Assembly (NCBI GenBank): GCA_009914755.4 | Contig: CP086569.2 | Coordinates: 1,600,001 to 1,664,000, forward strand | DNA from: the human T2T-CHM13v2.0 reference genome, Homo sapiens | Length of the DNA: 64,000 nt | Direction of reading: 5' to 3' | Shown here: positions 6,150 through 61,625 of the stretch, piece by piece | How the letters are laid out: the number at the start of each line of letters is the position of its first letter | Position numbering within the stretch: position 1 is the first letter of the stretch | The notes under the pieces: model-generated | The model's input: the letters and a program-made list of their open reading frames with translations, nothing else | Told to the model about the DNA's origin: nothing | The model's database searches: none | Translations under genes and position numbers: made by a program

Positions 6150-6990
6150 TTATACATGGAAGTCTTGATCCCCAGGACTTCAGACTGTGACTGTGTTTGG
6201 AGATGGGGTCTTTAAAGAGGTGATTAAGGCACAATGAGGTTATTAGGGTGAGCCCTGCTCCTATAGCTATGGTATCTTTACAAGAAAAGGAGATGAGGAC
6301 ACAAACACACACAGAGGGATGACCCTGTGAGGACACAGGGAGAAGACAGTGTCTCCAAGCCCAGGAGAGAGGCCTCAGGAGGAACCAGCCCTGCCCACAC
6401 CTGGATCTCAGACTTCCAGCCTCTAGGACTGTGGGAGAATCAATGTCTGTTGTTTATAAGCCACCGAGTCTATGATATTCTGTGATAGCAGCCTGAAATG
6501 GACTAAGACATCCCATAAGAAGAAGAGACGAGGACACAGACACACACACAGGGATGACCCTGTGAGGACACAGGGAGAAGACAGTGTCTCCAAGCCCAGG
6601 AGAGAGGCCTCAGGAGGAACCAGCCCTGCCCTCACCTGGATCTGGGACTTCCAGCCTCCAAGACTTGGGAGAATCAATGTCTGTTGTTTATAAGCCACTA
6701 AGTCTATGGTATTCTGTGCTAGCAGCCTGAAATGGACTAAGACATCCCATAAGCAGAGGAGATGAAGATTCAGACGCACACAGAGGGACGACCCTGTGAG
6801 AACACAGGGAGAAGACAGTGTCTACAACCCCAGGAGAGACGCCTCAGGAGGAACCAGCCCTGCCCACACCTTGATCTCAGATTTCTAGCCTCCAGGACTG
6901 TGGGAAATAAGTATATATTGTTTAAGTCACCCAGTCTGTGGTGATTTGTTATGGAGGCTTTAGCCAAGTAATATACTCCTCAAAACCCTA
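6150..6990 (+). repeat. Three tandem copies (~245-bp period) of the 3' half of a MaLR-type LTR
   Basis: 'ggactaagacatcccataag' recurs at ~6491 and ~6736. Each unit is ...gacacagggagaagacagtgtct...cttccagcctc[ct]a[ga]gact[gt]tgggagaatcaatgtctgttgtttataagccac... Confidence 0.7.
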
Positions 6991-7795: not shown

Positions 7796-8452
7796 TTTTT
7801 TGAAAATATTTATTTTACTTTAAGTTCTGGGATACATCTGCAGAACGTGCAGGTTTGTTATACTGGTGTACATGTGCCATGATGGTTTCCTGCACCTATC
7901 AACCCATCATCTAGGTTTTAAGCCCCACGTGCGTTAGGTATTTGTCCTAATGTTCTCCCTCCCCTCACCCTCAACCCCCTGACAGGCCCTGGTGTATGAT
8001 GTTCCCCTCCCTGTGTCCATGTGATCTCATTGTTCAACTCCTACTTATGAGTGAGAACATGTGGTGTTTGGTTTTCTGTGTCTGTGTTAGTTTGCTGAGA
8101 ATGATGGCTTCCAGCTTCATCCATGTCCTTGCAAAGGACATGAACTCATTCTTTTTTATGGCTGCTTAGTAATTCATAGTATATATGTGCCACATTTTCT
8201 TTATCCAGTCTATCATTGATGGGCATTTGGGTTGGTTCACTGTTTTTGCTATTGTAAATAGTGCTGCAATAAACATACGTGTGCATGTGTCTTTATGGCA
8301 GAATGATTTACAATACTTTGGGTATTTGCGCAGTAATGGGATTGCTGGGTCAAATGGCATTTCTGGTTCTAGATCCTTGAAGAATTGCCCCACTGTCTTC
8401 CACAATGGTTGAACTAATTTACACTCAACAGTGTAAAAGCGTTCCTATTTGG
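7796..8452 (-). mobile_element. L1 3'-terminal fragment (L1PA-like), 5'-truncated
   Basis: This is the reverse complement of the L1 3' end: tttattttactttaagttctgggatacat..gcagaacgtgcaggtttgtta...gtgagaacatgtggtgtttggttttctg...caataaacatacgtgtgcatgtgtctttat. Confidence 0.85.
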
Positions 8453-12470: not shown

Positions 12471-12847
12471 AAGAATGCTGGAAATTCGGTGAAAAGAGGG
12501 AGTGACTGATGACAAAAATCCTCCTATGGCAAAGAAGGTGGTAGTGGGCAGAATCTTCTACAGAGATCATCTCACTCTTCATGCACATCCCCACTAAACT
12601 TAGGAGAAACTTGAAAAGGGAAGAAATCTTTGCCCAAGGTCACTGTTGGTAAAAACCTAAGATCCTTCCTCCTTCCCTGGATGGCTTGTATTCTAACAGA
12701 AGCTCAGATAAATTCTGAAGTAAAGGGTTGGTATTTGATTGAAACCGATTTTGACATGATTTGTGAGTTTTTAAACCTTCCCAGGGGCATTCATTACCTT
12801 AAAATTCTAAAAGAAATTCAGGGCCATCTTAAAAGAGCTGATGGTTA

Positions 12848-13272
12848 TAGACAAATCAGGCCATCTAGCAGAAGCATGAAAGAATGGATGTAAAATGAAA
12901 CTCACCTATAGACAAATCAGACCCTCTAGCAGAAGCATGAAATAATGGATGTAAAATGAAACTCACCTATAGACAAATCAGGCCCTCTAGCAGAAGCATG
13001 AAAGAATGGATGTAAAAATGAAACTCACCTATAGACAAATCAGACCCTCTAGCAGAAACAGGAAAGAATGGATGTAAAATGAAACTCACCTATAGACAAA
13101 TCAGGCCATCTAGCAGAAGCATGAAAGAATGGATGTAAAAATGAAACTCACCTATAGACAAATCAGGCCCTCTAGCAGAAGCAGGAAATAATGGATGTAA
13201 AATGAAACTCACCTATAGACAAATCAGGCCATCTAGCAGAAGCATGATAGAGGATGTAAAATGAAACTCACC
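12848..13272. repeat. Minisatellite, 60-61-bp unit x ~7
   Basis: The unit tagacaaatcaggccatctagcagaagcatgaaagaatggatgtaaaatgaaactcacc is repeated head-to-tail with point variants. Confidence 0.92.
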
Positions 13273-17621: not shown

Positions 17622-18213
17622 TCATGAGCCTCCTACAGCTTTAGAATGTGGACAGCCTCTAATTAGGGCATGCCTGCAGTCTTCCTGATTCTCCTATCTG
17701 GGGTTCCTGCTTTTACATTTTTGCTAAATGCAAGGGACGGTGGCTGCCTCCCTTGGTATAGCAAGCCCTGGATAAATCGTTTCTTCTTGCTCGCTGTTGG
17801 GTGAGCTTCTATTATTTCCATAGTGACCAGTCATCATCACCTTGTCATCAGCAGCATGTCAATGTAGCGTGGAAAGTGGGGCTGGTGGATGGAGATGTCT
17901 TTTGCAGAGCCAGGGATTCCACGTGGAGCATTTACATTGGGACATTCACTGTTGAGGGTGCTTCCCCTCTCCCCTGCAGACCACCCCCACCAAGGGTCAA
18001 CCCAAGACCCCCAAGCTCACTTTCTTTCCTCCAGGTCTTCACTCTGATGTCAAGTCGTTTCATCTCTCTGAGTTCCTCTTTCTTTATTTGCTAGAAAGGG
18101 ATCCTGCCCTCCCTTTCCTATGACTCTTAGGTTTGTTCTGTGATAAGGTGATTCAAGGGGTGGACACTGCTTCATAAGCTGACCCACAGTGACTGCTGGA
18201 AATGAAAGAGGTT

Positions 18214-18715: not shown

Positions 18716-18835
18716 TTTCTCTTTTGGTGTTCAGTGGATAGGCGTCCAGGAAGGAGTGTTTGCTGGTTTTCTGGGGAGTAAAATAAAAACAAATGTGGAT
18801 TTAGATAAGAAAGAGATTTGAAAAGACAATTACAG

Positions 18836-19210
<375 letters not shown>

Positions 19211-19461
19211 TCAAAGACTCAGGCAGAAACAAATTTCATTTATAGGGAGAGGCATGTCAGAATAATTGATCAGGAAATACTTCCCCTTGTCGTTTGTTGA
19301 TTTTTCAGGAGGGGTTGTTGAAGAGGGGCTGTCCCACGTTCCAACGTACGAGGGTGTTCAGAGGAGCTGGGGGTGGGTGGGGGAGGAGAAAACTTCAAGT
19401 TTGGTCCACAAGCACTTTATTCCTATTGATTGTGGGGATGAACAGGTCAGCTAGACATTTA

Positions 19462-19790
<329 letters not shown>

Positions 19791-19940
19791 AGAAGAAAAT
19801 AAAAAGAAGGGATTTGGAGAGTCTGGTCTGGCCTTGCTCTGGAGATCAAGAGGAAGGCAGCCATGCATCTTTCCTAAGTCATGAGAGAAAGGCAGGAGTT
19901 TACAGCAAGTCACTTCTCAGAATACAAAAAGGTAAGGGGG

Positions 19941-20077
19941 ATTGAGACTATCCTGGCTAATGCAGTGAAACCCCATCTATACAACAACAAAAAATTAGTC
20001 AGATGTGGTGGTGCATGCCTGTAGTCCCAGCTACTTGGGAGAGGCAGGAGAATGGCGTGAACCCAGGAGGCAGAGGT
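19941..20077 (+). mobile_element. Alu right-arm fragment, truncated at the (TTCC)n tract
   Basis: gattgagactatcctggctaatgcagtgaaaccccatct...gaatggcgtgaacccaggaggcagaggtt, then an abrupt switch to ttccttcc... Confidence 0.8.
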
Positions 20078-20305
20078 TTCTTCCTTCCTTCCTTCCCTCC
20101 CTCCTTCCCTCCTTCCTTCCCTCCTTCCTTCCCTCCTTCCTTCCTTCCCTCCCTCCTTCCTTCCCCTTCTCCTTCCTTCCTTCCTTCCTTCTTTCCTTCC
20201 TTCTTTCCTTCCTTCTTTCCTTCCTTCTTTCCTTCCTTCCCCCCTTCTTTCTCTCCTCTCTCTTTCTTTCTCTCTCTTTCTCTCTCTCTCTTTCTTTCTT
20301 TCTTT
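20078..20305. repeat. (TTCC)n/(CTTT)n/(CT)n polypyrimidine tract (~230 bp), the expanded tail of the downstream Alu(-)
   Basis: tcttccttccttccttccctccctccttccc...ctttctttctctctctttctctctctctctttctttctttcttt is contiguous with gatggagtctcactctgtcaccc. Confidence 0.9.
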
Positions 20306-20586
20306 GATGGAGTCTCACTCTGTCACCCAGCCTGGAGTGAAATGGCACATTCTTGGCTCACTGAAACGCCCACCTCCCAGGTTCAAGTGATTCTTCTGCT
20401 TCAGCCTCCTGAGTAGCTGGGACTACAAGCGTGCACCACCACACCCAGCTAATTTCTGTATTTTTAGTAGAGATGGGGTTTCAACATGTTGGCCTGGCTG
20501 GTCTTGAACTCCTGACCTCAGGCGATCTGCCCATGTCGGCCGCCCACAATGGTGGGATTACAGGCATGAGCCACCCCACCTGGCCC
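20306..20586 (-). mobile_element. Alu (antisense)
   Basis: gatggagtctcactctgtcacccagcctggagtgaaatggcacattcttggctcactg...ggattacaggcatgagccaccccacctggccc. Confidence 0.9.
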
Positions 20587-21005
20587 AGGTAGGGGGATTT
20601 CTTACCCTTCACTGTTTTCTAGAAACACAGTGCTCAGAAAACGTTCAATAGTGTCTGGGACAAGATACTTAGGTCATTTGAGGGTCTTTTAAATAAAAGA
20701 ATAAAAAATTACGTATACACATTTAGACATGAAAGAGAATTTTTGTTTAGAATAAAATCACAGCAAATTGCAAAATCTGGAAAAGCTGATGGGCAGCCTC
20801 CAAAATCACAGGATTTACAGAACTAACATTGTTATGCATTCACCGTCAGACCCAATCCTATTTCCCCTACAACTTCTAGCCGGAAGGTCTTTGATCAGCG
20901 ATTTTTGTCTCATCCATACAGGCACGGGAAAGGTATTTCATTCTTTCCTGTAGCACAGCTGACTGTCATTTATTTATTTTTCAGACTTTAGAAAAGTATC
21001 TTTGA

Positions 21006-22248
<1,243 letters not shown>

Positions 22249-22488
22249 CATGTCAACTATGGGGAAAAGCTCATTAATTTTCTCTTCTATAAAATTTGAA
22301 AGATTTCTTGACGTTGCAGTTTCTTCTCCCATGATCATTTATCTCAATCTCATTTGAATTGACAGCATTCATTAGCTCGTTGGTTCTCAGTGTTCTCAGA
22401 GTAGCAGTATTTCAAACATTGTATGCTACCTACGTTGATGTTGTACTTTTTCCTAAATTGCTAAAAAATAGAAGGGTTTTTGCAATGA

Positions 22489-23029: not shown

Positions 23030-23590
23030 AGAAGGGCCCTAAATGCAATGACAGCTGTTCTAAGAGACAGAAGAGGAGACGCAGACACAGAGGAGAAGGC
23101 CACGTGTAGACAGAGGCAGAGACTGCAGTGATGTGGCCACAAGCCCAGGGATGCCTGGAGCCCCCAGGAGCTGGGAGAGGCAGGAAGGATCCTCCTCTAG
23201 AGCCTCTAGAAGGAACTGGATACAATTGGAATGGGTTATATGGTGATCCCCAAAATATATGTTTATTTCCTTTTCCCCAGAACCTATAAATGCAATCTTA
23301 CTTGGAAACAGGATCTCTGCAAATGTAATTAGTGAAGGATCTTGAAATAAAACCTGTCCTAGATTAGGGGGTCCTAAATGCAAGGACAGGTGTCCTTCTA
23401 AACACAGAAGGGGAGACCCAGACAGAGGAGAAGGCCACATGGAGACAGAGACTGGAGTGGTGTAGCCACGAGCCCAGGAATGCTGGGAGCCCCTGGGAGC
23501 TGGGAGAGGCAGGAAGGATCCTCCCCTAGAGACTCCAGAGGGAGCTCAGCCCTAACATACCTTCATCTCAGACTCCTGGTATCCAGGATT
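23030..23590 (+). mobile_element. MaLR-type LTR 3' region, internally duplicated (partial copy 23030-23215 plus fuller copy 23222-23590)
   Basis: gggccctaaatgcaa.gacag...gagaaggccac.tg.agacagag...ggagctgggagaggcaggaaggatcctcc.ctagag occurs twice. A paralogous copy lies at 61195-61625. Confidence 0.5.
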
Positions 23591-23616
23591 ATGTGAGCAT
23601 ACATTTCCATTTTAAG

Positions 23617-24370
23617 CCTTGAAGGTTGTGAAATCTGCCACGGCTGCCATGAAGGTTGTGAAATTGGTCACGGCTGCCTTGAAGGTTGTGAAATTGCTCA
23701 CGGCTGCCTTGAAGGTTGTGAAATTGCTCACGGCTGCCTTGAAGGTTGTGAAATTGCTCACGGCTGCCTTGAAGGTTGTGAAATTGCTCACGGCTGCCTT
23801 GAAGGTTGTGAAATTGCTCACGGCTGCCTTGAAGGTTGTGCAATTGCTCACGGCTGCCTTGAAGGTTGTGAAATTGGTCACGGCTGCCTTGAAGGTTGTG
23901 AAAGTGGTCACGGCTGCCTTGAAGGTTGTGAAATTGCTCACGGCTGCCTTGAAGGTTGTGCAATTGCTCACGGCTGCCTTGAAGGTTGTGCAATTGCTCA
24001 CGGCTGCCTTGAAGGTTGTGAAATTGGTCACGGCTGCCTTGAAGGTTGTGAAAGTGGTCACGGCTGCCTTGAAGGTTGCGAAATTGCTCACGGCTGCCTT
24101 GAAGGTTGCGAAATTGCTCACGGCTGCCTTGAAGGTTGCGAAATTGCTCACGGCTGCCTTGAAGGTTGCGAAATTGCTCACGGCTGCCTTGAAGGTTGCG
24201 AAATTGCTCACGGCTGCCTTGAAGGTTGCGAAATTGCTCACGGCTGCCTTGAAGGTTGTGAAATTGCTCACGGCTGCCTTGAAGGTTGTGAAATTTGCCA
24301 CGTCTGACTTGAAGGTTGTGAAATTGGTCACGGCTACCTTGAAGGTTGTGAAATTGGTCACGGCTGCCAC
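23617..24370. repeat. Highly homogeneous 30-bp minisatellite (CTTGAAGGTTGTGAAATTGCTCACGGCTGC) x ~25
   Basis: Exact 30-bp period. Variants occur in runs (aaattgGtca, Caattgctca, ggttgCgaaatt x6 consecutive). Stop-free frames here are a repeat artefact. Confidence 0.95.
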
Positions 24371-32029: not shown

Positions 32030-33560
<1,531 letters not shown>

Positions 33561-35089: not shown

Positions 35090-35490
35090 CATGTAGGGAA
35101 GACTCATGTATTGTCACAACAACCATGAAAGCAAAGGACAGAATCTGGGTGTCAGGGAGTGACATGGGTAGAATTGTGTGCCCTACAACATTAGGTTCAA
35201 GTTCTGACGCCAGGTACCTGTTAACGTGACCTTCTTTGGAAATCAGGTCTCTGCAAATGTAATGAGTCCAGACACCAAGGGAAACGGAGAAGATAAGAAG
35301 CAGAGATTGAGGTAATGCGTCCACCAGCCAAGGAGCACCAAGACGTGCTGGCGACCACCAGATGCTAGCGGGGAGACCTGGAACAGATTCTCCCTCAAAG
35401 CCTCCAGAAGTAAACCAACTCTGTAGACACCTTCATTTCAGACTTCTGGTCTCCAGAGCTGTGAGAGAATCCATTTCTGTTCATTGCAGC
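35090..35490 (+). mobile_element. MaLR-type LTR
   Basis: ...gtgaccttctttggaaatcaggtctctgcaaatgtaatgagtccagacaccaagggaaacggagaag...cagacttctggtctccagagctgtgagagaatccatttctgttcattgcagccac. Confidence 0.5.
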
Positions 35491-35632
35491 CACTTTTTTC
35501 TTTTCTTCCTTCTTTCTTTTCTTTTTTCTTTCTTTCTTTCTTCCTTCCTTCCTTCCTTTCTCTCTCTTTCTCTCTTTCTTCTTTTCCTTCCTTTGCTTCC
35601 TTTCCTTCCTTTCCTTGTTTCTTCTCTCTTTC
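35490..35632. repeat. Complex (TTTC)n/(TTCC)n polypyrimidine tract, the expanded tail of the downstream Alu(-)
   Basis: cttttttcttttcttccttctttcttttcttttttctttctttctttcttccttccttccttcctttctctctc... Confidence 0.85.
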
Positions 35633-35633
35633 T

Positions 35634-35913
35634 GAGATGGAGTTTTGCTCTGTCACCCAGGCTGGAGTGCAGTGGCGCAATCTCGGTTCACTGTGACCTC
35701 TGCCTCCTGGGTTCAAGTGATTCTCCTGCCTCAGCTTCCTGAGTAGCTGGGATTACAGGCACAAGCCACCATGCCCGGATAATTTTTTATATTTTTGGTA
35801 TAGACGAGGTTTCACCATGTTGGCCAATCTTGTTTCAAACTCTTGACCTCAAGTCATCCAGCCACCTTGGCCTCCCAAATTCTGAGATAACAGGTGTGAG
35901 CCACTGTGTCTTG
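35634..35913 (-). mobile_element. Alu (antisense)
   Basis: gagatggagttttgctctgtcacccaggctggagtgcagtggcgcaatctcggttcactg...gtgtgagccactgtgtcttgcc. Confidence 0.88.
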
Positions 35914-35989
35914 CCTGAGCCATTTCTTCAGCAGTGATTTTTTTTTTTCATGGCTGCCCTAGCTAAGGAATACCATTACAATGAAAGCT

Positions 35990-37500
35990 GAGCTGCTTAA
36001 GCTACAATTTTTTTTATTACTTATTTATTTACTTTTGTTTCAGTCATTTTTGGAGAACAGGTGGTTTTAGGTTACATGGATAATTTCTTTAGCAGTGATT
36101 TTTGAGATTTTCATGCACCCATCACTCAAGGAATGTACACTGTACTCAATGTGTAGTCTTTTATCCCTCACTCCCCTCCTACCCTTTCCCCCGAGTCCCC
36201 AAAGTCCGTTGTATAATTCTTATGCCTTTGCATCCTCGTAGCTTAGCTCGCACTTATGACTGAGAACGTTTGATATTTAGTTTTCTTATACCCAAGTTAC
36301 TTCACTTGGAATAATGGCCTCCACTTCCATCCATGTTACTGCAAAATACATTATTTTACTCCATTTTATGGGTGAGTAGTATTCCGTGGTGTATATACAC
36401 CACACTTTCTTTATCCACTCCTTGGTTGATGGGGATTTAGGCTGGTGTCATATTTTTGCAATCGCAAATTGTGCTGCTATCAGTTACCACTAAAGAACTC
36501 ATCCATGTAACCTAAAACCACCTGTCCTCCAAAAACTACTGAAACAAAAGTCAATCAATAAATAATAATAAAAGGCAAGTGCCTTTTTTCATATAATGAC
36601 TTCTTTTCCACTGTGTAGATACTCAGTTCTGAGATTGCTGGATCAAATTGTTGATCTACTTTTAGTTCTTCAAGGAACCTCCATACCTGGATCAAATGGT
36701 AGTTCTATTATTAGTTCTTCAAGGAGTCTCCATACCTGGATCAAATGGTAGTTCTAGTATTAGTTCTTTAAGGAGTCTCCATACCTGAATCCAATGGTAG
36801 TTCTACTATTAGTTCTTTAAGGAGTCTCCATACCTGGATCAAATGGTAGTTCTATTATTAGTTCTTTCAGGAATCTCCATACCTGGATCAAATGGTAGTT
36901 CTAGTTTTAGTTCTTCAAGGAGTCTCCATACCTGGATCAAATGGTGGTTCTATTATTAATTCTTCAAGGAATCTCCATACCTGGATCAAATGGTGGTTCT
37001 ATTATTAGTTCTTTAAGGAGTCTCCATACCGGGAACAAATGGTAGTTCTAGTATTAGTTCTTTAAGGAATCTCCGCAGTGGTTTCCATAGTGGTTAAACT
37101 AGTTTACATTCCCACCAGCAGTGTAAAAGTGTTCCCTTTTCACCACATCCACACCAACATCTGTTATTCTTTGATTTTTGAATTATGGCCATTCTTGCAG
37201 GAGTAAGATGGTATCTCACTGTGGTTTTAATTTTCATTTCCCTGATCATTAGTGATGTTGAGCATTTTTTCATATGCTCATTGGACATTCATATATCTAC
37301 TTTTGAGAATTGTCTATTCATGCCCTTTGCCTATGTTTTGATGGGATTGTTTGTTTTTTTTTCCTGCTGATTTGTTTGAGTTCCTTGTAGATTCTGGATG
37401 TTAGTCCTTCGTCGGATTCATAGTTGGGCAAATTTTTCTCCCATTCTGTGAGTTGTGTGTTTACTCTGCTGATTCTTTGTTTTGCTGTACAGAATAAGCT
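35990..37500 (-). mobile_element. Rearranged old L1 (antisense): 3'-end segment 35990-36490, inverted duplicate of its first ~75 bp at 36500-36580, internal 49-bp tandem array 36640-37080, ORF2-antisense segment 37085-37500
   Basis: ttgtttcagtcatttttggagaacaggtggttttaggttacatggat (36025-36072) has its reverse complement at 36505-36575. The body matches the L1 antisense (attccgtggtgtatatacaccacactttctttatccac; tttacattcccaccagcagtgtaaaagtgttcc). Confidence 0.7.
36640..37080. repeat. 49-bp tandem repeat x ~9, derived from L1 ORF2-antisense sequence
   Basis: The unit cctggatcaaatggtagttctattattagttcttcaaggagtctccata derives from L1 'ctgggtcaaatggtatttctagttctagatccttgaggaatcgccac'. Confidence 0.88.
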
Positions 37501-39880: not shown

Positions 39881-40339
<459 letters not shown>

Positions 40340-45385: not shown

Positions 45386-46299
45386 AGCAACATACAAAAA
45401 GACAGTGGCCCCCAAAATCTCCTCTCATCACAAGGAGCCCCCTTCACTTCACCCACAAAGGAGGCAAGATTTGAGGTCATCAGGCTCCCAACCAAGGGAC
45501 TGGGTGTTCTGATCTATGTTTTAACTTTTCAATCAAGTACATCACTTCCAGCTGGGACTCTGGGTCTAGCACAGGGAGAAATAAAGTGTGAACCATCATT
45601 ACAAGCTCAGGGAGGGAGGGAGAAAGTGCAAATCGAAGAGCTGGAAAATCATCGAGCCAGCCCAACTGTTGGGAGATTGGGGATTCTTTGTGCACGGAGC
45701 AGAAACAATCTCCTGCACGGGGTGGCGGCTTGGGCCAGGACTTCTCGGCATTGAGGAGTTACAGAGCTGTTTTGTAGCTAAACCGACTTTCATTCCAAGC
45801 ACTTCTACAGAGAACGAAATCAAACAGCGGTGATGATGGGATCCCCAGGCCCGGCCAGTGATCTGCTTAATTACTGACCAGGGAAGCTTCAGTAGCTTAA
45901 TTGGATTGATGGGCACAGTGCCTAGTCCTCCACCCACTGGTCCCAGAGATTTTTATGGATAGCATGCTGATCTTCCATGCCCTGAGGCTTGGGGTCCTGT
46001 GTCCAGCATTCCCCACCAACTGGGCAGATGCTGCTGGATTTATGTCAACAGCGAGTTCTGCAGGCACACCTCTAAAACACAGTCTCATAGTGTCTTCTGT
46101 TTTCAGGAACAAATACAAATTTTCTTCTCACATAAGTTATATCATGAACATGAGCATTTAACAAGGGACGGTGTGTGTGTGCGAGCACGTACATGTTGTA
46201 TGTTGTGTGTTTTGTGTGTGTATGAGAGAGACACCACAGACACACTAGCCCCATGAAAGGCCAGGGCAGTGAGGCCTGGACCATGGTCTGCTAAGGACC

Positions 46300-47075
46300 T
46301 GGTGTGGCACACTGATGGTTATCACAAGTGGCCTGGGAGGTGTTCTGTTGGCCCCAGGGGTTCACTGACCATCATCACAGGTGGCCTGTGATGTGTTGAC
46401 TTGGTGGGGCCCACTGACCACCATTGCTGGTGGCCTTAGAGGTGATCTGTTGACCCCAGGGGCTCACTGGTGACCACTGCCGGTAGCCTGGGAGGTGGTC
46501 TGTTGACCTTGGGGACTCATTGATGACCATTACAGGTGGCCTGGGAGATGGTCTGTTGACCCTGGGGAGTCACTGATGACCATTTCAAGTGGTCTGTTGA
46601 CCTTGGGGGCTCACTGACGGCCATTGCAGGTTGTCTGGGAGGTGGTGTGTTGACCTTGTGGGCTCACTGATGGCCATTGCTGGTGGCCTTGGCGATGATG
46701 GTCTGTTGACCCCAGGGGCTCACTGGTGACCACTGCAGGTGGGCTGGGAAGTGGTCTGTTGACCTGGGGACTCACTGACCACCATTGCTGGTGGCCTTGG
46801 AGATGGTTTGTTGACCTTGGGGACTCACCACCATTGCAGGTGACTTGGAGATGGTTTGTTGACCTTGGGGACTCACTGACCACCACTGCAGGTGACTTGG
46901 GAGATGGTTTGTTGACCCTGGGGACTCACTGGTGACCATTACAGGTGGGCTGGGAAGTGGTCTCTTGACCTGGGGACTCACTGACCACCACTGTTGGTGG
47001 CCTTGGAGATGGTTTGTTGACCCCAGGGGCTCACTGATGACCATTGCAGGTGGCCTGGGGGATGGCCTATTGACT
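46300..47075. repeat. Minisatellite, ~60-63-bp unit x ~13
   Basis: The unit gtctgttgacc..ggggactcactgaccaccattgcaggtggcctgggagatg is repeated with variants. The minus- and plus-strand 'ORFs' across it are artefacts. Confidence 0.9.
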
Positions 47076-47912
47076 GGGCACATCCTACTGATTCACTGCA
47101 GAAGGCGGGCAATTTGCTGAGCACCTAGAAGGGCCTGACTATCAGTGCCAGGGTTAGTGGGTCCAACCTCAAGGTCCTGCACCTAGAGGACCTAACACAG
47201 ACAATGTTCTGCTGGCTGCTGAACACTTGGACCTAACCCTGACCATCTTCTGCACATTGCCCAGGACTAGTTGGCCCCACTTCTTCTCTTCTCAGAGCCC
47301 ACGATAGGCCCTGTGGTCACTCCCTCTGCAGAGGTGGAACTGAAATTCCCTCAGGTCACATTCCTGGTTATGCAGGAAGCTGAGAATGAGACAGGAATTC
47401 CAAACCCAGGTCAGTGGCCTAAATATGGTCCTGTGGGTCTGACCACAGGCAGTTACAAGGCTGGAACCCAGGGGAAAGCTGCCTTCCCACATCGCGCTGG
47501 GTGCACACCTGGAGCATTACACAGCTTGGGGGGATGAAGGGTAAGACCTCAGGCCCCTGGGCAGCCATGCTCTTATGAGTATGTATATCCTGGAGCAGGT
47601 CCTGCCACTTCAGGCCTCCTTACTAGTGGTGGAAGAGGCAGGTGCCTGAGCCCCTCTTCCCCATTCTGACTTGTACCTTTTGACTCCTAGCCCTTTCCAC
47701 TCTCCCTCCCCAGACCTCCTAGTTCAGGACATGCCTGAACACCTCCGGTAACCTTCCCATGTGTAGTTTCCAGTATACCAAGAGGAGCTTGTGCGGTGGT
47801 TGAGCTTTAAGCAGCAGAAAGTTTCTCAGCAATTTGCCTCGTATATATTGGTATTGGTGTGCTCCAGGGAGACAGAACCAATTGTATCATTTCACGATAA
47901 GAAGAGGTTCTA

Positions 47913-51760: not shown

Positions 51761-52439
51761 GGGACCCTCTGGGCAGAATCACCTCCATCCCACCTGGGTT
51801 TCCACTTTAAACCCCCCAGTGGGGATTTTCCCATTCTGGAGACCTGGATGGGGTCCTCTGAGAACATCAGGCTCTTTTTCTGAGCCTTTGATCTCCAGCC
51901 TAGCCTGAATCAGGCTGGATGTCAGAGGTGCATCCTCCTTAGAATGAAGGAAGAAGGGACTTGGTAGTGTTCTATGTACACACGGCAGGGTGATGCTTTG
52001 GGGTGTTTGTAAACGAGGTTTCTCCCTCTCATTCAGTTGCTCATCTTCCCTTTCACCCACTGCCCTGCCAACTAATTTGAGTAGCCTGATGGTGCTTGCT
52101 TCATCTCGCCAGGGGAGGGATGGGTTAGACCAGAGAGATGGAGAAAAACCAGCCTCTCCCTCGCTTGACTTCAAGGTCTGTTTTCAAGAGGGAGGCGCGC
52201 GTGGGTTTGGGTTAGACCTAAAGTGGTTGATGCTTAGAGGGAGGGATTTCTTTGCTCTCAGACTAGGGGGCAGAGATGAGGTAGCGAGGATGGAATATAG
52301 AGGTGATTGAAGGTATCTGGAAAGATATGCGTGGGCAATATGCAAATATTACACCATTTTATATAAGGGACATCCATGAATTTTACTAGCATCTGCTGAG
52401 TGTCCTGACATCAATCCTCCACAGATAACAAGGGATGAC

Positions 52440-53101
52440 TGTATATAGATGACTTAGAGATACAGAAAGATATATAGAGAGATAGGGCGATACAGAGATG
52501 AAAGATTGATTGATGATAGATACCTGGATGGATAGATAGGAGATAGATAAATACATAGATACATAGATAGACGACAGATAGATACATAGATAGATAGATA
52601 CATACATAGATAGATGATAGAAAGATAGATGATAGATGGTAGATAGATAGATAATAGATAGATAAGTAAATAGATAGTAGACAGAAGATAGACAGTAGAC
52701 AAGTAGCTGGTAGGTACATAGTAGAAAAGTGGTAGATAGATAGATAGAAGACAAGTCGCTGGTAGGTAAGTAGACAGACAGTAGACAGGTAGCTGTGTAG
52801 ACAGATGATAGATAGATAGATAAGATAGATAGAAACATAGATGATAGGAGACAGGTACATAGATATCTGGATGAATAGATAGGAGATAGATGACAGATAG
52901 ATAGATAGATGATAGATGGTAGATAGATAGATAATAGATAAGTAAATAGGTAGATAGTAAACAGAGATAGAAGATAGATAGTAGACAAGTAGCTGGTAGG
53001 TAGATAGGTAGATAGAAAAGTAACTGGTAGATAGATAGAAGACAAGTAGCTGGTAGGTAGGTAGATAGAAAGACAGTAGACAGGTAGCTGTGTAGACAGA
53101 T

Positions 53102-53147
<46 letters not shown>

Positions 53148-53275
53148 CAAAGATAGATAGTAGATAGATAGTAGATAGAAAGATAGATAGATGGATAGTA
53201 GATAGATAGATAGAGATAGATGATAGATAGGAGACAGGTACATAGATTGATGTCGTGTTGATTGACAGATGATAG
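52440..53275 (+). repeat. (GATA)n-rich compound repeat (~830 bp) with a ~280-bp higher-order unit
   Basis: gatagatagatagatag... runs are interleaved with agtagacaagtagctggtaggta.atag..agaaaagt..tggtagatagatagaagacaagt.gctggtaggta.gtaga.aga.agtagacaggtagctgtgtagacagatgatagatagatagata, repeated at ~52700 and ~52980. Confidence 0.9.
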
Positions 53276-53934
53276 AGCCATATACACTGAGGTGTGTACA
53301 CACACATGTATAAACGCACATTGGATATACAGATGTATATATAGAGAGAGAACCATATGCACAGAGTCATGTACTCATATGCCCCCCACTGCTGTGTCAC
53401 TGCGTACATTTTCAGAAATCCACCTATTTCTGAGTCGAGGAAGAACCTGCTCTCCCAGGGGTAAAGGGGTGTGCCGCTCCAGGATGACATGCCACCCTGG
53501 TGTTGACTCTTTCAGCCCCACACACAAACCCCACCCGCTGGGTCAGGGTTTACACCCTCTTCAGTGAATGTCCTGGATTTCCTGGAGAGGCTCAGCCAGG
53601 CAGGAGGGGACCAGGAGAGGCGCTGGCCATTCCTCCAGTTTGGTCACCAAGAGGTGGGTGGTTTCAGCCTGAAAGATGCACCTGCAGGACCTGTGGGTTG
53701 AGTAGATGGTGTCACCTGAGGGGCAGGGGATGACCAGCGTCCCTGGGTGGAGAGGGCTGCGTGGACAGTGCACTCATCCCACCTTGCTGCCCCTCAGTCG
53801 CCTGGCCACAGAGACTCCGGGTCCACCACATTGAACCCCCACTGCCACGATGCCCTTCACCCTTGACGTGAAAGTCCCTTCCTCACCTGAGCCCGCCAAC
53901 GTCTCTCCATCCTCACTTCCTCATCTCTGCCCCC

Positions 53935-54420
53935 AGTCTATCTACTTATCTATTTATCTATGTATCTATCTATCTACTATCTATGTATCTATCTATCTAC
54001 TATCTATCTATATCTATGTATCTATTATCTATCTATATCTATGTATCTATGTATTATCTATCTATATCTATCTATGTATCTATCTCTATCTACCTATCTA
54101 TCATCTATGTATCTATTTATCTATCTAGCTATCTATGTGTGTATCTAGTATCTATCTATCTAGCTATGTATCTATGTATTATGTATCTATCTTCTATCTA
54201 TATCTATCTATCTATGTATCTATCTATCTCTATCTATCATCTATGTATCTCTCTATCTAGCTATCTATGTATCTAGTATCTATCTATCTGGCTATCTATG
54301 TATGTATCTATGTATTATCTATCTTCTATCTATCCATCCATATATCTATCATCAGTCAATCAATCCTTTCATCGCTGTATCGCTCTATCCAGGTATCTTA
54401 TCTATTTATTTTTCTCTTTC
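53935..54420 (-). repeat. (TATC)n/(TCTA)n-rich compound repeat, the inverse complement of the GATA array type ~650 bp upstream
   Basis: ctatctacttatctatttatctatgtatctatctatctactatctatgtatctatc... Confidence 0.9.
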
Positions 54421-54774
54421 TATATTTCTGTATCTCTAACTCATCTATATACAGTCATCCCTTGTTATCTGTGAGGGATTGGTTCCAGGACACACGACAG
54501 ATAATAGTAAAATTCATGGATGTGGCTGATAGAAAATGGTGTAGTATTTGCATATTAGCTATGCACATCCTTCCAAATACCTTCAATTGCCTCTATATTA
54601 CTTATAATACTTAATACAATGTAAGTGCTATGTAAATAGTTACTATACCATATTGTTCAGGGAATAATGTTTTAAAAAGTCTGTACATGTTCAGTACAGA
54701 TGCATTTTTTTCCAAATATTTTTCATCTGTGGTTGGTTGAATCCACGGATTTGGAAGCCACAGATATGAACAGC

Positions 54775-55405
54775 CAACTCTGTGTGAGTGTGTGGGTATA
54801 TATACATATGTATGTGTGTATACATGTATATGTATATATGTATGTGTGTATATGTGTATATATGTGCGTATAGATGTATGTGTGTATATATGTACATGTA
54901 TATATGTATGAGTGTATATATGTGTATATGTATATGTGCATTTATATGTATATATATGTGCATATATGTATGTGTATATATGTACACGTATATATGAGTA
55001 TATATGTGATTTGTATATATGTATGTGTATATATGTGCGTATGTATATGTATATGTGTGTATGTTTATATGTACATGTGTATATATGTACATGTGTGTAT
55101 ATATGTATATATGCATGTGTGTATATCTGTCTGCATGTACATGTATGTGTGTATATATGTATATGCACATATGTCTGCGTGTACATATGTGTGTATATAT
55201 GTATATGTTTATATGCACGTATGTACATGTATATATGTGTGTATATATGTACATGTATATATGTATGTGTGTATATATGTGTGTATATATGTATGTGTGT
55301 GCATATGTATGTGTATGTGTGTGTGTAGATATGTATATGTACGTGTGTATATATGTGTGAATATGTATGTGTGTATATATGTATATGTGTATTCGTGTAT
55401 GTATA
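54775..55405. repeat. (TG)n/(TA)n/(TGTATA)n low-complexity block (~630 bp), compositionally like 48521-48935
   Basis: tgtgtgagtgtgtgggtatatatacatatgtatgtgtgtatacatgtatatgtatatatgtatgtgtgtatatgtgtatatatgtgcgtatagatgtatgtgtg... Confidence 0.88.
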
Positions 55406-56261
55406 CACTACATTTATTCTATCTCATAATTATGTATAAAACATGTAAGACAGATGCTAATTGTTGCCGCTCACCTACCTACATTTTCTCTTTAAGAAAC
55501 ATACGGTTTCAGATTTTAAAATGAAACAGACTTGAAGCCATGTGGAAATTTTTGACTGAAGTTCTCCAGTGGCCAATTTCTGTTTAAAAAATGTAAAAAG
55601 ACCAAGGATTTCACACACTCCATCAGGCACCTAATAAAGAGACTCATGCATCTGTCAGTAACAGCAGCCCAGCAACCCAGCATTGCACGGTTAGAATATC
55701 TACTAGGAAGTGAAAAATAAATAACCGTTGTATCTGAACCTTTACAGGGTCTCAAACACCTGCCTGATTCACAATGGTGCATAATTCCAGTGATTTTCCA
55801 TTTATGAAGGTTCTTGGAGCACCTGGTCTCTCTTCCCTATGATCATGCAAAACCAGCTTTCAAAACCTTTTCATCGGCGGATTAAACAGATTCTCATTTC
55901 CCCTCTCCCTTAATACGTTCCAAGGTGTTTGAAAGAGTCGTGGATACATTTTAATTTTCTTAATCATAGTTTTGCGGCGAATTGTCACGTCACCGGGTTC
56001 ATTTGTTTGGAAGTGTATTGAAGCTTCCTCTTCTGTAACGTTATGAGATAATTGCTTTCTATCCAAATCCCATTCTGTGAATCCATGTGTCCAGTGGAGG
56101 GTGCCTGTACCCAAGCTAAGTTACTCTTTCAGCCCGGGAGGCTCTAAAATCCAAAGAATGCTTGCTTGTCTAAAACGTCCAGTTCAATATCTGGACCTTT
56201 GCTTTTTCTTTTCTTTTTTATTTTTAACCAGTAGCCTAGTTAGAAGGTCCCTTTCTCTTTA

Positions 56262-56875
56262 TTTTTATTTTACTTTAACTTCTGGGATACATGTGCAGAA
56301 TGTGCAGGTTCGCTACAGAGGTATACATGTGCCATGGTGGTTTGCTGTACCTGTGAACCCGTCATCTAGGTTTTAAGCCCTGCATGCATTAGATATTTGT
56401 CCTAATGCTCTCCCTCCCCTTGCCCCCCACCCCCTGACAGGCCCCTGTGTGTGATGTTCCCCTCCCTGTGTCCATGTGTTCTCATTGTTCAACTCCCACT
56501 TATGAGTGAGAACATGCAGTGTTTGGTTTTCTGTTCTTGTGTTAGTTTGCTGAGAATGATGGTTTCCAGCTTCATCCATGTCCCTGCAAAGGACATGAAC
56601 TCATTCTTTTTGATGGCTGCATAGTATTCCATGGTGTATATGTGCCACATTTCTTCATCCAGTCTATCATTGATGGACATTTGGGTTGGTTCCAAGTCTT
56701 TGCTATTGTGAATAGTGCTGCAATAAACATACGTGTGCATGTGTCTTTATAGTAAACTGATTTATAATCCTTTGGGTGTATACCCAGTAATGGGATTGCT
56801 GGGTCAAATGTATTTCTGGTTCTAGATCCTTGAGGAATCGCCACACTGTCTTCTACAATGGTTGAACTATTTTTC
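56262..56875 (-). mobile_element. L1 3'-terminal fragment (L1PA-like), 5'-truncated; an independent insertion from the 7796-8452 copy
   Basis: tttatttttattttactttaacttctgggatacatgtgcagaatgtgcaggttcgctacag...gtgagaacatgcagtgtttggttttctg...caataaacatacgtgtgcatgtgtctttatagtaaactgatttataatcctttgggtgtatacccagtaatgggattgctgggtcaaatg. Confidence 0.88.
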
Positions 56876-57129
56876 ATATCGTTTCTATTGCATAAGCACT
56901 TTCTTAAATAAAAAAAGTTTTATTCCTCCTTCCCAATATGTAGGCATTTTCTTAGCTTTTTTGAATTGCACTAGAGGGTCCTACAGTTTGCTTTTGTGTG
57001 AGACAGGACACTTTGCTGTGCTCCTGATCTTACCAGGAAGGCATTTAGCCCTTCCCTGCTAAGTATAATCAATAGCTGTCAGTTTGTAATGTGCTTTATA
57101 AGGTGGAAGAAATTGTCTCTATTCCTACT

Positions 57130-57362: not shown

Positions 57363-57473
57363 ATTCTCTTCTCCTCTCCTCTCTCCTCTCTTCTCCTCTC
57401 TCCTCTCCTCTCTCCTCTCCTCCCTCCTCTCCTCTCTCCTCTCCTCTCCTCTCCCCTCCCCTCTCCTCTCCTT
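57363..57473. repeat. (CTCCT)n/(CCTCT)n pyrimidine microsatellite
   Basis: tctcttctcctctcctctctcctctcttctcctctctcctctcctctctcctctcctccctcctctcctctctcc... Confidence 0.88.
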
Positions 57474-57476
57474 TTC

Positions 57477-59659: not shown

Positions 59660-60673
59660 CTCTCTCTGTCTTTCATCTGTCACTATTGTTACTATTCTAT
59701 CTGTTCATCTATCTATTAATATCTACATATCTTCTATATATCATCTATTATCTAACATCTACCTATATCTATATATCATGTATTATCACGTATCTATCCA
59801 TTGTCTATTTCTGTCATTTATCATTCTGTGTATTGATCATCTTTTTTTCTATCATCTATGTAACTCATCTATCATCTGTCATGTCTATCATCTATCTATT
59901 TTTCTATCATCTGTGCATTGATCGATCTAGCATCTATTATCCCTCTCTATCATCTATTGATCTATCTACATATCTATCCGTCTACCTACTTAGCATCTAT
60001 CTGTCATCTATTGGTCTTTCTACATATCTACCTACCTACCTACCTACTCAGCATCTATGTATCTGTGTATCCATCTATCATCTATTGATCTTCCTACATA
60101 TCTACTTACCTACCTACTCAGCATCTATGTATCTATCTATCATCTATTGATCTCTCTACATATCTACCTACTAACCTACTCAGCGTCTATGTATCTATGT
60201 ATCTATCTATCATCTATTGATCTCTCTACATATCTACCTACCTACCTACTCAGCGTCTATGTATCTTTGTATCTAGCTATCATCTATTGATCTATCTACA
60301 CATCTATCTACCTACTTAGCATCTATCATCTATTGACCTATCTATATATCTATCTACCTACCTACTCAGCATCTATTATCTATCATCTATCTATCATCTA
60401 TCTAATCTATCTATTGTCTATTGATCTATCTACACATCTATCTACCTACCTAGTTAGCATCTATCATCTGTTATCTATCTACATATGTGTCTACCTATCT
60501 ACTTAGCATCTATCTATCATCTATTGATCTATCTATATATCTATCTATCTACCTACTTAGCATCTATCTCTGTATCATCTATTGATCTATCTACATATCT
60601 ACCTACCTATCTACTTAGCATCTATCTATCACCTATTGGTCTATCTACATGTCTATATACCTACCTCCTTAGC

Positions 60674-60720
<47 letters not shown>

Positions 60721-60905
60721 ATCTATTGATCCATCTACTTGTCTATATACCTACCTCCTTAGCATCTATCTAATCTATCATCTGTCTATCTATCTATCTA
60801 TCCAGCTATCTCTCATCTATTTACCTAAGTATTCTCTCTCTCTCTCTCTCTCACTCTTGCTCTCTCCCCCTTGCTCTCTCCCTACTACCTATCTATTATA
60901 TATCT
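59660..60905 (-). repeat. (TATC)/(CATC)/(TACC)-rich compound repeat (~1.2 kb) with a ~62-bp higher-order unit; includes a pure (TATC)11 at ~60676-60720 and a (CT)n at ~60830-60860
   Basis: catctattgatct.tctacatatctacctacctacctactcagc.tctatgtatct.t.tatc.atctat recurs ~15 times between ~59990 and ~60790. Confidence 0.88.
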
Positions 60906-61194
60906 ATCTATGGCAGTTGCTAGCAACCAGGTACGATGTTTTGCCCTAGGGCACATTTGGCAATGTCTGAACATATTCTTGGTGTCACAAGGCTGTTTGG
61001 CACATCTTGTGTAATTATGAATTTCCCAGAACATAGGCTTTTATCAGGAAATCCTCATGGTTCTGCCCTCAGCATGTATCCCACAGGTGAGTACATTATG
61101 ACCTCTAGGGTGCCCAGTGAAGTCTCAGCCCTCCACCACACACCCTGTGCTTGACTTTTGAAGCCATCTCTTCCTGGTCTTTCTGCCTCTTACC

Positions 61195-61625
61195 TGACCC
61201 TTGGTCTATCAACTGTAGATAATCCTGGGGAATAATCATGCTGTTACCTGAGTGGGCTGCTTTGAAGAATGTGTCCCAAATCCATCCAACGGGAACCTCA
61301 GAATGTGACCTTATTCGGAAATAAGATTTTTGCTGAAGTGATGAGTTAACACAACATCATATTGGAGGTGCATGGGCCTTAAGTCCAATGACAGGTGTCC
61401 TCACAAGAGACAGAAGAGGAGACACAGACACAGACGAGGAGGCCACATGGACATGGCGGCAGAGACTGGAATGATGTGGCCACAAGCCCATGGATGCCTG
61501 CCACCCCCAGGAGCTGGGAGAGGCAGGAAGGATCCTCCCCTAGAACCTCCAGAGGGAGCTCAGCCCTGAGACACATTCAGTTCAGACTTGTGGTCTGCAG
61601 GACTGGGAGAGGATACATTTCTGTT
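61195..61625 (+). mobile_element. MaLR-type LTR, a paralogue of the 23222-23590 copy
   Basis: gaacctcagaatgtgaccttattcggaaataagatttttgctgaagtgatgagttaac...gggccttaagtccaatgacaggtgtcctcacaagagacagaagaggagacacagacacagacgaggaggccacatggacatgg...ggagctgggagaggcaggaaggatcctcccctagaacctccagagggagctcagccctga. Confidence 0.5.

What the first reader, a model, noticed from the sequence alone, without database searches (positions are those of the whole stretch)
19941..20586. 230-bp polypyrimidine (TTCC/CTTT/CT)n tract as an expanded Alu tail that truncates a neighbouring Alu
A sense Alu right arm stops abruptly at ...ggaggcagaggtt, followed by ~230 bp of (TTCC)n→(CTTT)n→(CT)n. This runs straight into the poly-T start of an antisense Alu (20306-20586). 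The simplest reading is that the A-tail of the antisense Alu mutated to (GGAA)n/(GAAA)n and expanded. Either the expansion or the original insertion deleted the end of the sense Alu. Tracts this long and pure are classic H-DNA/triplex-forming mirror repeats and are often polymorphic. The same tail-expansion pattern occurs at 32318, 35490-35632, 39935 and 42400.
Basis: partly seen in the sequence, partly recalled or inferred. Interest (0 to 1): 0.5.

Follow-up and report, generated by a model that had tools for sequence, protein, structure and literature searches.

The report
Expanded Alu tail beside Alu fragment
A 229-base all-pyrimidine stretch is the overgrown, G-enriched A-tail of an ordinary primate Alu element, a well-known way in which microsatellites arise, and the half-Alu next to it was probably patched in later rather than cut off by it.

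Summary
Window 20077-20305 is an uninterrupted 229-nt C/T run. It lies between a sense Alu fragment (19944-20078) and a full-length antisense AluSx-like element (20306-20585).

The tract is that Alu's A-tail turned into a compound (AAAG)/(AG)/(AAGG)/(AGGG) microsatellite:
- It starts at the Alu's 3' end and is purine on the Alu's own strand.
- It has strong period-4 and period-12 structure.
- It is about ten times the median Alu tail in this window.

New point: a direct repeat brackets the whole composite. AGGTAAGGGGGATT (19930-19943) matches AGGTAGGGGGATT (20587-20599), shuffle P = 6e-5. With the fragment excised, the match grows to 17 nt (AGGTA(A)GGGGGATT+TCTT), ending at TCTT/ACCC. Another Alu in this window (32343-32563) used that same 14-mer site.

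So the antisense Alu most likely inserted classically. The 135-nt tail-less, doubly truncated sense fragment most likely entered afterwards, inside the left duplication copy.

The tract meets formal H-DNA motif criteria, but perfect mirror arms reach only 17 nt. Length polymorphism could not be tested. This is an ordinary, known kind of feature, so interest is low.

The parts
19930..19943 (+). Left copy, first part, of the target-site duplication: AGGTAAGGGGGATT
   Evidence: It matches 20587-20599 at 13 of 14 positions with one indel. Shuffle P = 6e-5. It also resembles Alu consensus 66-78 at 10 of 14 positions, so it could have served as microhomology for joining the fragment.
19944..20078 (+). 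Sense Alu fragment of 135 nt (about consensus 79-220), truncated at both ends, with no A-tail and no duplication of its own
   Evidence: It aligns best to an AluY/Sc-type consensus (score 180, against 161 for AluSx). Non-CpG divergence is 10.2%. No near-identical donor exists in the window; the best match is 81.6%. It is not a fold-back copy of the neighbouring Alu: the inverted arms are 72-84% complementary and carry different diagnostic bases.
20079..20082 (+). TCTT: inferred second part of the left duplication copy. It could instead be simply the first bases of the tract.
   Evidence: With 19944-20078 excised, the left copy reads AGGTAAGGGGGATT+TCTT, against AGGTAGGGGGATTTCTT on the right. 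None of 100,000 shuffles reached this score. The four bases alone are weak evidence, because TCTT fits the TTCC repeat.
20079..20305 (-). Expanded A-tail of the antisense Alu. On the Alu strand it reads (AAAG)4, (AG)n/(AAAG), G6, [(AAGG)2 AAAG]x4, (AAGG)5, then (AAGG/AGGG)n. It is 227 nt; with the two T of the fragment it forms the 229-nt pure pyrimidine run 20077-20305.
   Evidence: The G fraction rises from 0.33 next to the Alu to 0.63 distally. Lag-4 autocorrelation is 0.81 (z = 9.4). A perfect 12-mer occurs four times at 20183-20233. The median tail in the window is 21.5 nt and the next longest is 141 nt.
20306..20586 (-). Full-length AluSx-like element (consensus 1-280), with one extra base (C at 20586) at its 5' junction
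   Evidence: 84.6% identity to AluSx (score 388, against 341 for AluY). Non-CpG divergence is 9.1%.
20587..20603 (+). Right copy of the target-site duplication, AGGTAGGGGGATTTCTT, ending at the inferred L1 endonuclease nick TCTT/ACCC
   Evidence: The same 14-mer GATTTCTT/ACCCTT flanks the antisense Alu at 32343-32563. That Alu has a clean 12-nt duplication GGATGATTTCTT and its tail starts right after TCTT.

Best explanation
This is a two-step composite of Alu elements in primate DNA.

**Step 1 (inferred from the duplication and site).** An AluSx-like RNA was inserted in minus orientation by ordinary L1-driven target-primed reverse transcription. The + strand was nicked at GATTTCTT/ACCC. The insertion carries a 17-nt target-site duplication, AGGTAGGGGGATTTCTT.

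**Step 2 (shown by anatomy; the process is inferred).** Its poly(A) tail acquired G substitutions and grew by slippage of 4-nt and 12-nt units into a 227-nt compound (AAAG)/(AG)/(AAGG)/(AGGG) microsatellite. On the + strand this gives a 229-nt pure polypyrimidine run.

**Step 3 (inferred).** A 135-nt piece of another Alu (Sc/Y-like) was joined into the left duplication copy between GATT and TCTT, four bases from the tail.
- It is truncated at both ends, has no tail and has no duplication of its own.
- The junctions show short microhomologies: GAT on the left and TT on the right.
- This is the signature of an endonuclease-independent ('non-classical') Alu insertion, or of a templated patch at a double-strand break.

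The tract is a sequence by-product with no demonstrated function. It formally qualifies as an H-DNA motif cluster and is probably a mutable microsatellite.

**Sub-confidences.** Tail origin of the tract about 0.9. The repeat being the antisense Alu's duplication, with the fragment arriving later, about 0.55.
For: - **Tract anatomy.** It is a pure C/T run of 229 nt, directly contiguous with the Alu 3' end.
- **Periodic structure.** Lag-4 autocorrelation is 0.81 (z = 9.4) and lag-12 is 0.81 (z = 9.3). The 12-mer CCTTCCTTCTTT is perfect four times. Random A-to-G decay of a long poly(A) cannot produce this, so tandem expansion is required.
- **Tail length.** It is about ten times the window median of 21.5 nt. 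Four other antisense Alus in the window show the same kind of tail on a smaller scale.
- **Bracketing direct repeat.** Shuffle P = 6e-5 for the 13/14 match. None of 100,000 shuffles reached the 17/18 match obtained after excising the fragment.
- **Duplication length.** The inferred 17 nt lies within the 5-27 bp range (mean 14) reported for new Alu inserts (PMC3415434).
- **Nick site.** The inferred site TCTT/ACCC was demonstrably used by another Alu in this window, with an identical 14-mer context and a clean 12-nt duplication.
- **Fragment features.** They match those listed for non-classical Alu insertions: 5' and 3' truncated, no poly(A), no flanking duplication (PMC5402677).
- **Subfamily order.** The fragment scores better against AluY than AluSx, and the full Alu the reverse. 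An Sx-type element inserting before an Sc/Y-type element is the usual order.
- **Known process.** Retrotransposon tails giving rise to A-rich microsatellites is established (PMC3812793; PMC11667243).
Against: - The left repeat copy also aligns to Alu consensus 66-78 at 10 of 14 positions. It could therefore be read as Alu sequence or as the fragment's own junction.
- Five A's (19925-19929) precede the left copy. A classical 5'-truncated sense Alu would show exactly this: target AC/AAAAA and duplication AAAAAGGTAGGGGGATT.
- The TCTT extension is only four bases and fits the TTCC repeat.
- Most reported non-classical insertions come with a target deletion. None is evident here.
- The divergences of the two Alus (10.2% and 9.1% non-CpG) do not order them in time.
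- No orthologous or allelic sequence could be obtained.
Confidence: 0.55

Rival explanations
1. A 5'-truncated sense Alu inserted first, at target AC/AAAAA with duplication (AAAAA)GGTAGGGGGATT. The AluSx-like element later inserted into it at ...GAGGTT/GCAG. That insertion removed the last ~62 nt of the sense Alu plus its A-tail (about 90 bp in all). The new Alu's 5' end therefore now abuts the older Alu's right duplication copy.
For: - The left repeat copy joins the fragment at a point of Alu microhomology.
- An A5 run precedes the left copy, as at a canonical L1 endonuclease site.
- About 10% of genomic Alus are 5' truncated, and about 4% of new inserts come with deletions or rearrangements (PMC3415434).
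Against: - The deletion would have to end within a base or two of the older Alu's tail/duplication boundary. No mechanism favours that end point: a nick in the T-run would leave A's, and only one A is present.
- GGTT/GC is a poor L1 endonuclease site.
- The good site GATTTCTT/ACCC, 17 nt from the Alu's 5' end and used by another Alu in this window, would be coincidence. So would the TCTT that follows the fragment.
- It needs an Sc/Y-like element to predate an Sx-like one.
Confidence: 0.25
2. The whole composite entered in a single event. It would be either a copy of an RNA that read from the Alu through its tail into a downstream antisense Alu, or a DNA segment copied from another locus. The 13-nt repeat would then be the duplication of that one event.
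For: One repeat pair brackets everything. The Alu's 5' end is exactly full length, as expected for a Pol III transcript.
Against: - On the Alu strand the fragment contains TTTTTT, a strong Pol III terminator, about 50 nt before its end.
- Priming would have had to be internal, with no terminal poly(A).
- The repeat extends to 17 nt only when the fragment is taken out. A one-step origin does not predict this.
- No second copy was found in the window.
Confidence: 0.05
3. Most of the tract's length was created at the moment of insertion, not afterwards. The source Alu would already have had a G-interrupted tail. L1 ORF2p slippage during reverse transcription then multiplied the distal units.
For: New Alu inserts show tail expansion during insertion, with duplication of non-A interruptions, preferentially at the distal end (PMC3415434). 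Here the distal part is the most repetitive and the most G-rich.
Against: - Reported expansions are roughly doublings of tails a few tens of bases long, not growth to 227 nt.
- The tract has several distinct blocks with different units, which suggests repeated later events.
- Sequence alone cannot separate this from post-insertion slippage.
Confidence: 0.1
4. The pyrimidine tract was a microsatellite that existed before the Alu, which merely landed next to it.
For: T-rich pyrimidine tracts can be nicked by the L1 endonuclease. The window holds one long pyrimidine tract that is not next to an Alu tail (57364-57476).
Against: - The tract lies wholly between the Alu's 3' end and the left duplication copy.
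- Its A-richest part is next to the Alu.
- Four other antisense Alus in the window show the same arrangement.
Confidence: 0.03

Closest known systems
A-rich microsatellites born from Alu/L1 poly(A) tails (reviewed in PMC3812793)
   Same: The repeat starts at the Alu 3' end, is purine-rich on the Alu strand, arises by A-to-G change plus slippage, and has tetranucleotide units such as GAAA and GGAA.
   Different: Nothing in kind. This one is simply long (227 nt) and compound, with many variant units.
RFC1 (AAGGG)n expansion in the tail of an AluSx3, and the FXN GAA repeat in an Alu (PMC11667243)
   Same: A homopurine/homopyrimidine repeat derived from an Alu A-rich region, with G content rising as the repeat grows, and H-DNA potential.
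   Different: Those are long, nearly pure penta- or trinucleotide arrays of hundreds of units, with disease consequences. Here the units are tetranucleotides, the longest pure run is 5 units, the total is 227 nt, and no gene context or effect is known.
Non-classical (endonuclease-independent) Alu insertions, as summarised in PMC5402677
   Same: An Alu fragment truncated at both ends, with no poly(A) and no duplication of its own, joined with short microhomologies.
   Different: No target deletion and no extra filler sequence is evident. No pre-insertion allele is available to prove it. The insertion point lies in a T-rich stretch (GATT/TCTT), so an endonuclease nick cannot be excluded.
Alu retrotransposition-mediated deletion (Callinan et al. 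2005, cited in PMC4666360)
   Same: It would explain a neighbouring Alu losing its 3' end when a new Alu inserts.
   Different: Such events lack flanking duplications. Here a significant direct repeat flanks the insert.
H-DNA motifs as defined for genome scans (PMC11879447)
   Same: Arms of at least 10 nt, spacer under 8 nt, at least 90% purine or pyrimidine, under 80% AT. The tract yields 21 such motifs. That paper reports 15,259 such motifs within 12,221 Alu loci.
   Different: The arms are short (10-17 nt) compared with the long perfect mirror repeats studied experimentally. Triplex formation itself was not tested.

Membership tests
Classical L1-mediated (TPRT) Alu insertion: the antisense AluSx-like element | Intact 3' end followed by an A-rich tail | tested here: met
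   The consensus is matched to position 280. The purine tract then begins, reading AAAGAAAG... on the Alu strand.
Classical L1-mediated (TPRT) Alu insertion: the antisense AluSx-like element | Flanking target-site duplication of about 5-27 bp | tested here: met
   13/14 repeat at 19930-19943 and 20587-20599, shuffle P = 6e-5. It becomes 17/18 when the fragment is excised. The left copy is separated from the tail by the 135-nt fragment.
Classical L1-mediated (TPRT) Alu insertion: the antisense AluSx-like element | Target resembling the L1 endonuclease site (TTTT/AA and variants) | tested here: met
   The inferred nick is TCTT/AC. The identical 14-mer was used by the Alu at 32343-32563, which has a clean 12-nt duplication.
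Alu-tail-derived microsatellite | Contiguous with the Alu 3' end, purine on the Alu strand, and inside the duplication | tested here: met
Alu-tail-derived microsatellite | Tandem periodic structure beyond what substitution alone would give | tested here: met
   Lag-4 z = 9.4 and lag-12 z = 9.3. A perfect 12-mer occurs four times. Tandem Repeats Finder reports period 4.
Alu-tail-derived microsatellite | Length variation between individuals or species | not testable with these tools
   Three exact-protein look-ups and two metagenome scans with unique flank sequence found no other copy of the locus.
H-DNA (intramolecular triplex) motif | Mirror repeat with arms of at least 10 nt, spacer under 8 nt, at least 90% R or Y, under 80% AT | tested here: met
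   There are 21 motifs, merged into 20111-20238 and 20245-20299. The definition is from PMC11879447.
H-DNA (intramolecular triplex) motif | Long uninterrupted mirror symmetry ('classic' H-palindrome) | tested here: not met
   The longest perfect arm is 17 nt (spacer 5). The best imperfect arm is 33 nt with 3 mismatches. The longest pure TTCC run is 5 units.
H-DNA (intramolecular triplex) motif | Triplex actually forms (S1 or chemical probing under supercoiling) | not testable with these tools
   This needs an experiment.
Non-classical (endonuclease-independent) Alu insertion: the sense fragment | 3' truncated, no poly(A) tail | tested here: met
   It ends at consensus position about 220 and abuts the pyrimidine tract.
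Non-classical (endonuclease-independent) Alu insertion: the sense fragment | No target-site duplication of its own | tested here: met
   Only TT is shared at the two junctions.
Non-classical (endonuclease-independent) Alu insertion: the sense fragment | No L1 endonuclease site at the insertion point | tested here: inconclusive
   The insertion point GATT/TCTT is T-rich but not followed by A. It can be read either way.
Non-classical (endonuclease-independent) Alu insertion: the sense fragment | A pre-insertion allele shows the fragment filling a break, often with a deletion | not testable with these tools
   No ortholog or allele is available. No deletion is evident from the restored 17-nt duplication.
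   A significant direct repeat flanks the insert. The rival reading must assign this repeat to the older Alu instead.

The most novel reading that the evidence does not exclude
The sense Alu fragment is the scar of a double-strand break at the edge of a structure-prone, expanded Alu tail, and the break was repaired by capturing Alu cDNA or Alu-templated DNA. If this recurs, expanded homopurine/homopyrimidine Alu tails would be hot spots for endonuclease-independent Alu capture. A possible second case in this window is the truncated Alu abutting a 160-nt purine tract at 39970-40324. Such capture would then be one source of closely spaced inverted Alu pairs.
Probability: 0.12. Interest if true: 0.35.

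Novelty: already known. Interest (0 to 1): 0.15.

Why it matters
It matters little beyond annotation. Alu tails that mutate and expand into GAAA/GGAA-type repeats are a textbook source of primate microsatellites and of H-DNA motifs. This locus is a long but much-interrupted example with no known gene context.

The one useful lesson concerns method. The order of events at nested Alus should be read from the target-site duplications. Here they suggest that the truncated Alu is a later patch rather than a victim of the insertion. The locus would probably be a multi-allelic length polymorphism, but that was not tested.

Tried and rejected
- **Other copies of the locus, for polymorphism and for the order of events.** Exact-protein look-ups with three ORFs of the window found nothing: the 137-aa ORF across the tract, and ORFs at 23060-23440 and 17801-18094. 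Two metagenome scans with unique 28-31-mers from the left and right flanks also found nothing. The remaining collections are bacterial, viral, plasmid or E. coli, and were not used.
- **Fold-back or inverted duplication of the neighbouring Alu as the source of the fragment.** Rejected. The arms are only 72-84% complementary and carry different subfamily bases.
- **A local donor Alu for the fragment.** None exists in the window; the best match is 81.6%.
- **Paralogy between this locus and the Alu sites at 32.3 kb or 39.9 kb.** Rejected. Apart from the shared 14-mer, the flanks do not align. The Alu-masked self-comparison shows no such duplication.
- **First significance test for the direct repeat.** This test drew random pairs of window segments. 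It was inflated by other repeats, giving P of about 0.003-0.014. It was replaced by composition-preserving shuffles.
- **Rfam scan of the window.** No hits.
- **ORF survey for exons, to establish gene context and the transcribed strand.** Nothing convincing was found, only L1 fragments and minisatellite read-throughs. Splice-site and RNA-binding ideas for the tract were therefore dropped.
- **G-quadruplex on the purine strand.** There is no canonical motif with loops of 7 nt or less.

Full report
**What is there**

The window is primate DNA, dense with Alu elements: 61 Alu matches in 64 kb. At the reported place the + strand reads as follows:
- unique sequence ending ...ACAAAA-AGGTAAGGGGGATT (19930-19943);
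- a sense Alu fragment, GAGACT...GGCAGAGGTT (19944-20078);
- an uninterrupted pyrimidine run, 20077-20305 (229 nt, 117 T and 111 C);
- a full-length antisense Alu, 20306-20585, plus one extra C;
- then AGGTAGGGGGATTTCTT-ACCC... (20587 onward).

Tandem Repeats Finder calls the run a period-4 array. One correction applies: the sense Alu is truncated at both ends (about consensus 79-220), so it is not only a right arm with its end cut off.

The antisense Alu fits an AluSx consensus best (score 388, against 341 for AluY). The fragment fits an AluY/Sc type best (180 against 161).

**The tract is the Alu's tail**

Read on the Alu's own strand from its 3' end, the 227 nt are: (AAAG)4, a mixed (AG)/(AAAG) block, GGGGGG, [(AAGG)2 AAAG] four times, (AAGG)5, and then a mixed (AAGG)/(AGGG) block.
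- The G fraction climbs from 0.33 next to the Alu to 0.63 at the far end.
- Identity at lag 4 is 0.81, against 0.50 in shuffles (z = 9.4). Lag 12 gives the same value (z = 9.3).
- A 12-mer is repeated perfectly four times at 20183-20233.

Random A-to-G decay of a long poly(A) would not give this pattern. Units of 4 and 12 nt must have been multiplied in tandem.

Among 56 Alus in the window with an intact 3' end, the median purine tail is 21.5 nt. This one is the longest, and the next is 141 nt.

The one at 32311-32342 has a clean 12-nt target-site duplication directly after the tract.

That retrotransposon tails give birth to A-rich microsatellites, including tetranucleotides, is established (PMC3812793). 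The RFC1 (AAGGG)n repeat in an AluSx3 tail is a well-known disease example (PMC11667243).

**A direct repeat brackets the whole composite**

AGGTAAGGGGGATT (19930-19943) and AGGTAGGGGGATT (20587-20599) match at 13 of 14 positions. They sit exactly at the outer edges of the fragment and of the antisense Alu.

A first test against random window pairs was contaminated by other repeats. With composition-preserving shuffles of the two 30-nt flanks, the score is reached in 6 of 100,000 trials.

If the 135-nt fragment is removed, the left copy continues with TCTT (20079-20082), just as the right copy does (20600-20603). This gives a 17-nt duplication, and no shuffle reached its score. Seventeen bases is within the 5-27 bp range reported for new Alu inserts (PMC3415434).

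The implied nick, GATTTCTT/ACCC on the + strand, is a variant L1 endonuclease site. Strikingly, the identical 14-mer GATTTCTTACCCTT flanks the antisense Alu at 32343-32563. That Alu's tail begins right after TCTT. The two loci are otherwise unrelated.

**Most likely history**

The simplest reading is as follows.
1. The AluSx-like element inserted classically at this site, with a 17-nt duplication.
2. Its tail turned into the compound repeat.
3. A tail-less, doubly truncated piece of another Alu was later joined into the left duplication copy, four bases from the tail.

The junctions show short microhomology. On the left, GAT of the target matches GATC of the Alu. On the right, TT is shared.

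The fragment's features are those listed for endonuclease-independent, non-classical Alu insertions: truncated at both ends, no poly(A), no duplication (PMC5402677). A DNA-templated repair patch would look the same.

The fragment is not a fold-back copy of the neighbouring Alu. It has no close donor in the window.

**The main rival**

- a 5'-truncated sense Alu inserted first; five A's precede the left repeat copy, as at a canonical AC/AAAAA target;
- the AluSx-like element then inserted into it at GAGGTT/GCAG, with loss of about 90 bp.

Its weaknesses are:
- it needs the deletion to end exactly at the older Alu's tail/duplication boundary;
- it needs a poor nick site;
- it leaves both the TCTT match and the proven endonuclease site 17 nt from the Alu's 5' end as coincidences.

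My rough weighing of these coincidences favours the later-patch model by about 3-6 to 1. This is a judgement, not a computed likelihood. The non-CpG divergences of the two Alus (10.2% and 9.1%, against a window median of 6.2%) show that both are old, but they do not order them.

One-step origins are unlikely. A read-through transcript is unlikely because a T6 Pol III terminator lies inside the fragment. A moved DNA segment, like the transcript, does not predict that the repeat extends to 17 nt only after the fragment is excised.

**H-DNA claim**

The usual genome-scan definition requires arms of at least 10 nt, a spacer under 8 nt, at least 90% purine or pyrimidine, and under 80% AT (PMC11879447). 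By that definition the tract yields 21 motifs, in two merged blocks: 20111-20238 and 20245-20299.

Variant units (CCCT, CTTT, CCCC) limit the symmetry:
- perfect mirror arms reach 10-17 nt;
- the best imperfect arm is 33 nt with three mismatches;
- the longest pure TTCC run is five units.

So it is a cluster of modest H-DNA motifs, not a long perfect H-palindrome. Such motifs are common: that paper reports 235,970 in the genome, of which 15,259 lie in 12,221 Alu loci. This window alone has 12 merged H-DNA loci.

The purine strand has no canonical G-quadruplex motif. Whether a triplex forms was not tested.

**What could not be done**

No other copy of the locus could be retrieved. Neither length polymorphism nor the order of events could therefore be checked against another genome. 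No exon, CpG island or RNA family was found nearby, so gene context and the transcribed strand are unknown. No function is claimed.

**Verdict**

The feature is real and correctly described, but ordinary: an expanded, G-enriched Alu tail. Interest is low.

Noticed in passing
window 39927-40324: A polypurine (GGAA/GAAA/GA)n tract of about 160 nt (40164-40324) directly abuts the 5'-truncated end (consensus 85) of the antisense Alu at 39970-40165. That Alu has its own 43-nt pyrimidine tail at 39927-39969. The purine tract is on the wrong strand to be that Alu's tail. No flanking duplication was found, either right after the Alu or after the purine tract. This is possibly a second case of a truncated Alu joined to a long purine/pyrimidine tract.
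   Followed up: partly
window 20596-20609 and 32577-32590: The identical 14-mer GATTTCTTACCCTT lies at the 5' flank of two different antisense Alus. In both, the tail starts after TCTT on the other side. The surrounding flanks do not align. This is probably endonuclease site preference plus chance.
   Followed up: yes
window 57364-57476: A 113-nt pure pyrimidine tract of CTCTCC-like units has the longest perfect mirror arm in the window (25 nt; 27 H-DNA motifs). It lies about 100 nt from the nearest Alu, so it is not an obvious Alu tail.
   Followed up: no
window 6282-6942, 12846-13272, 23616-24368, 36638-37074, 46284-47081, 52294-55400, 59660-62590: The window is unusually rich in minisatellite arrays; 23616-24368, for example, has a 30-bp unit about 25 times at roughly 94% identity. 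There is no CpG island, no convincing exon and no Rfam hit. The region looks like a VNTR-rich non-coding stretch.
   Followed up: no
window 35493-35632: This is the second-longest Alu tail in the window (about 141 nt, G fraction 0.33), on the antisense Alu at 35634-35904. An imperfect flanking duplication lies at 35471-35499 and 35920-35944.
   Followed up: partly
window 18835-22249: Alus around the finding are more diverged (about 8-11% non-CpG) than the window median of 6.2%. This could reflect an older cluster or locally raised mutation; the two were not distinguished.
   Followed up: no
window 7806-8423 and 56261-56876: Two L1 ORF2 3'-end fragments are 88.7% alike, in the same orientation and 48 kb apart.
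   Followed up: no
window 20586: A single extra C lies between the antisense Alu's 5' end and the right duplication copy. It belongs to neither the consensus nor the duplication, and looks like an untemplated base at the 5' junction.
   Followed up: no
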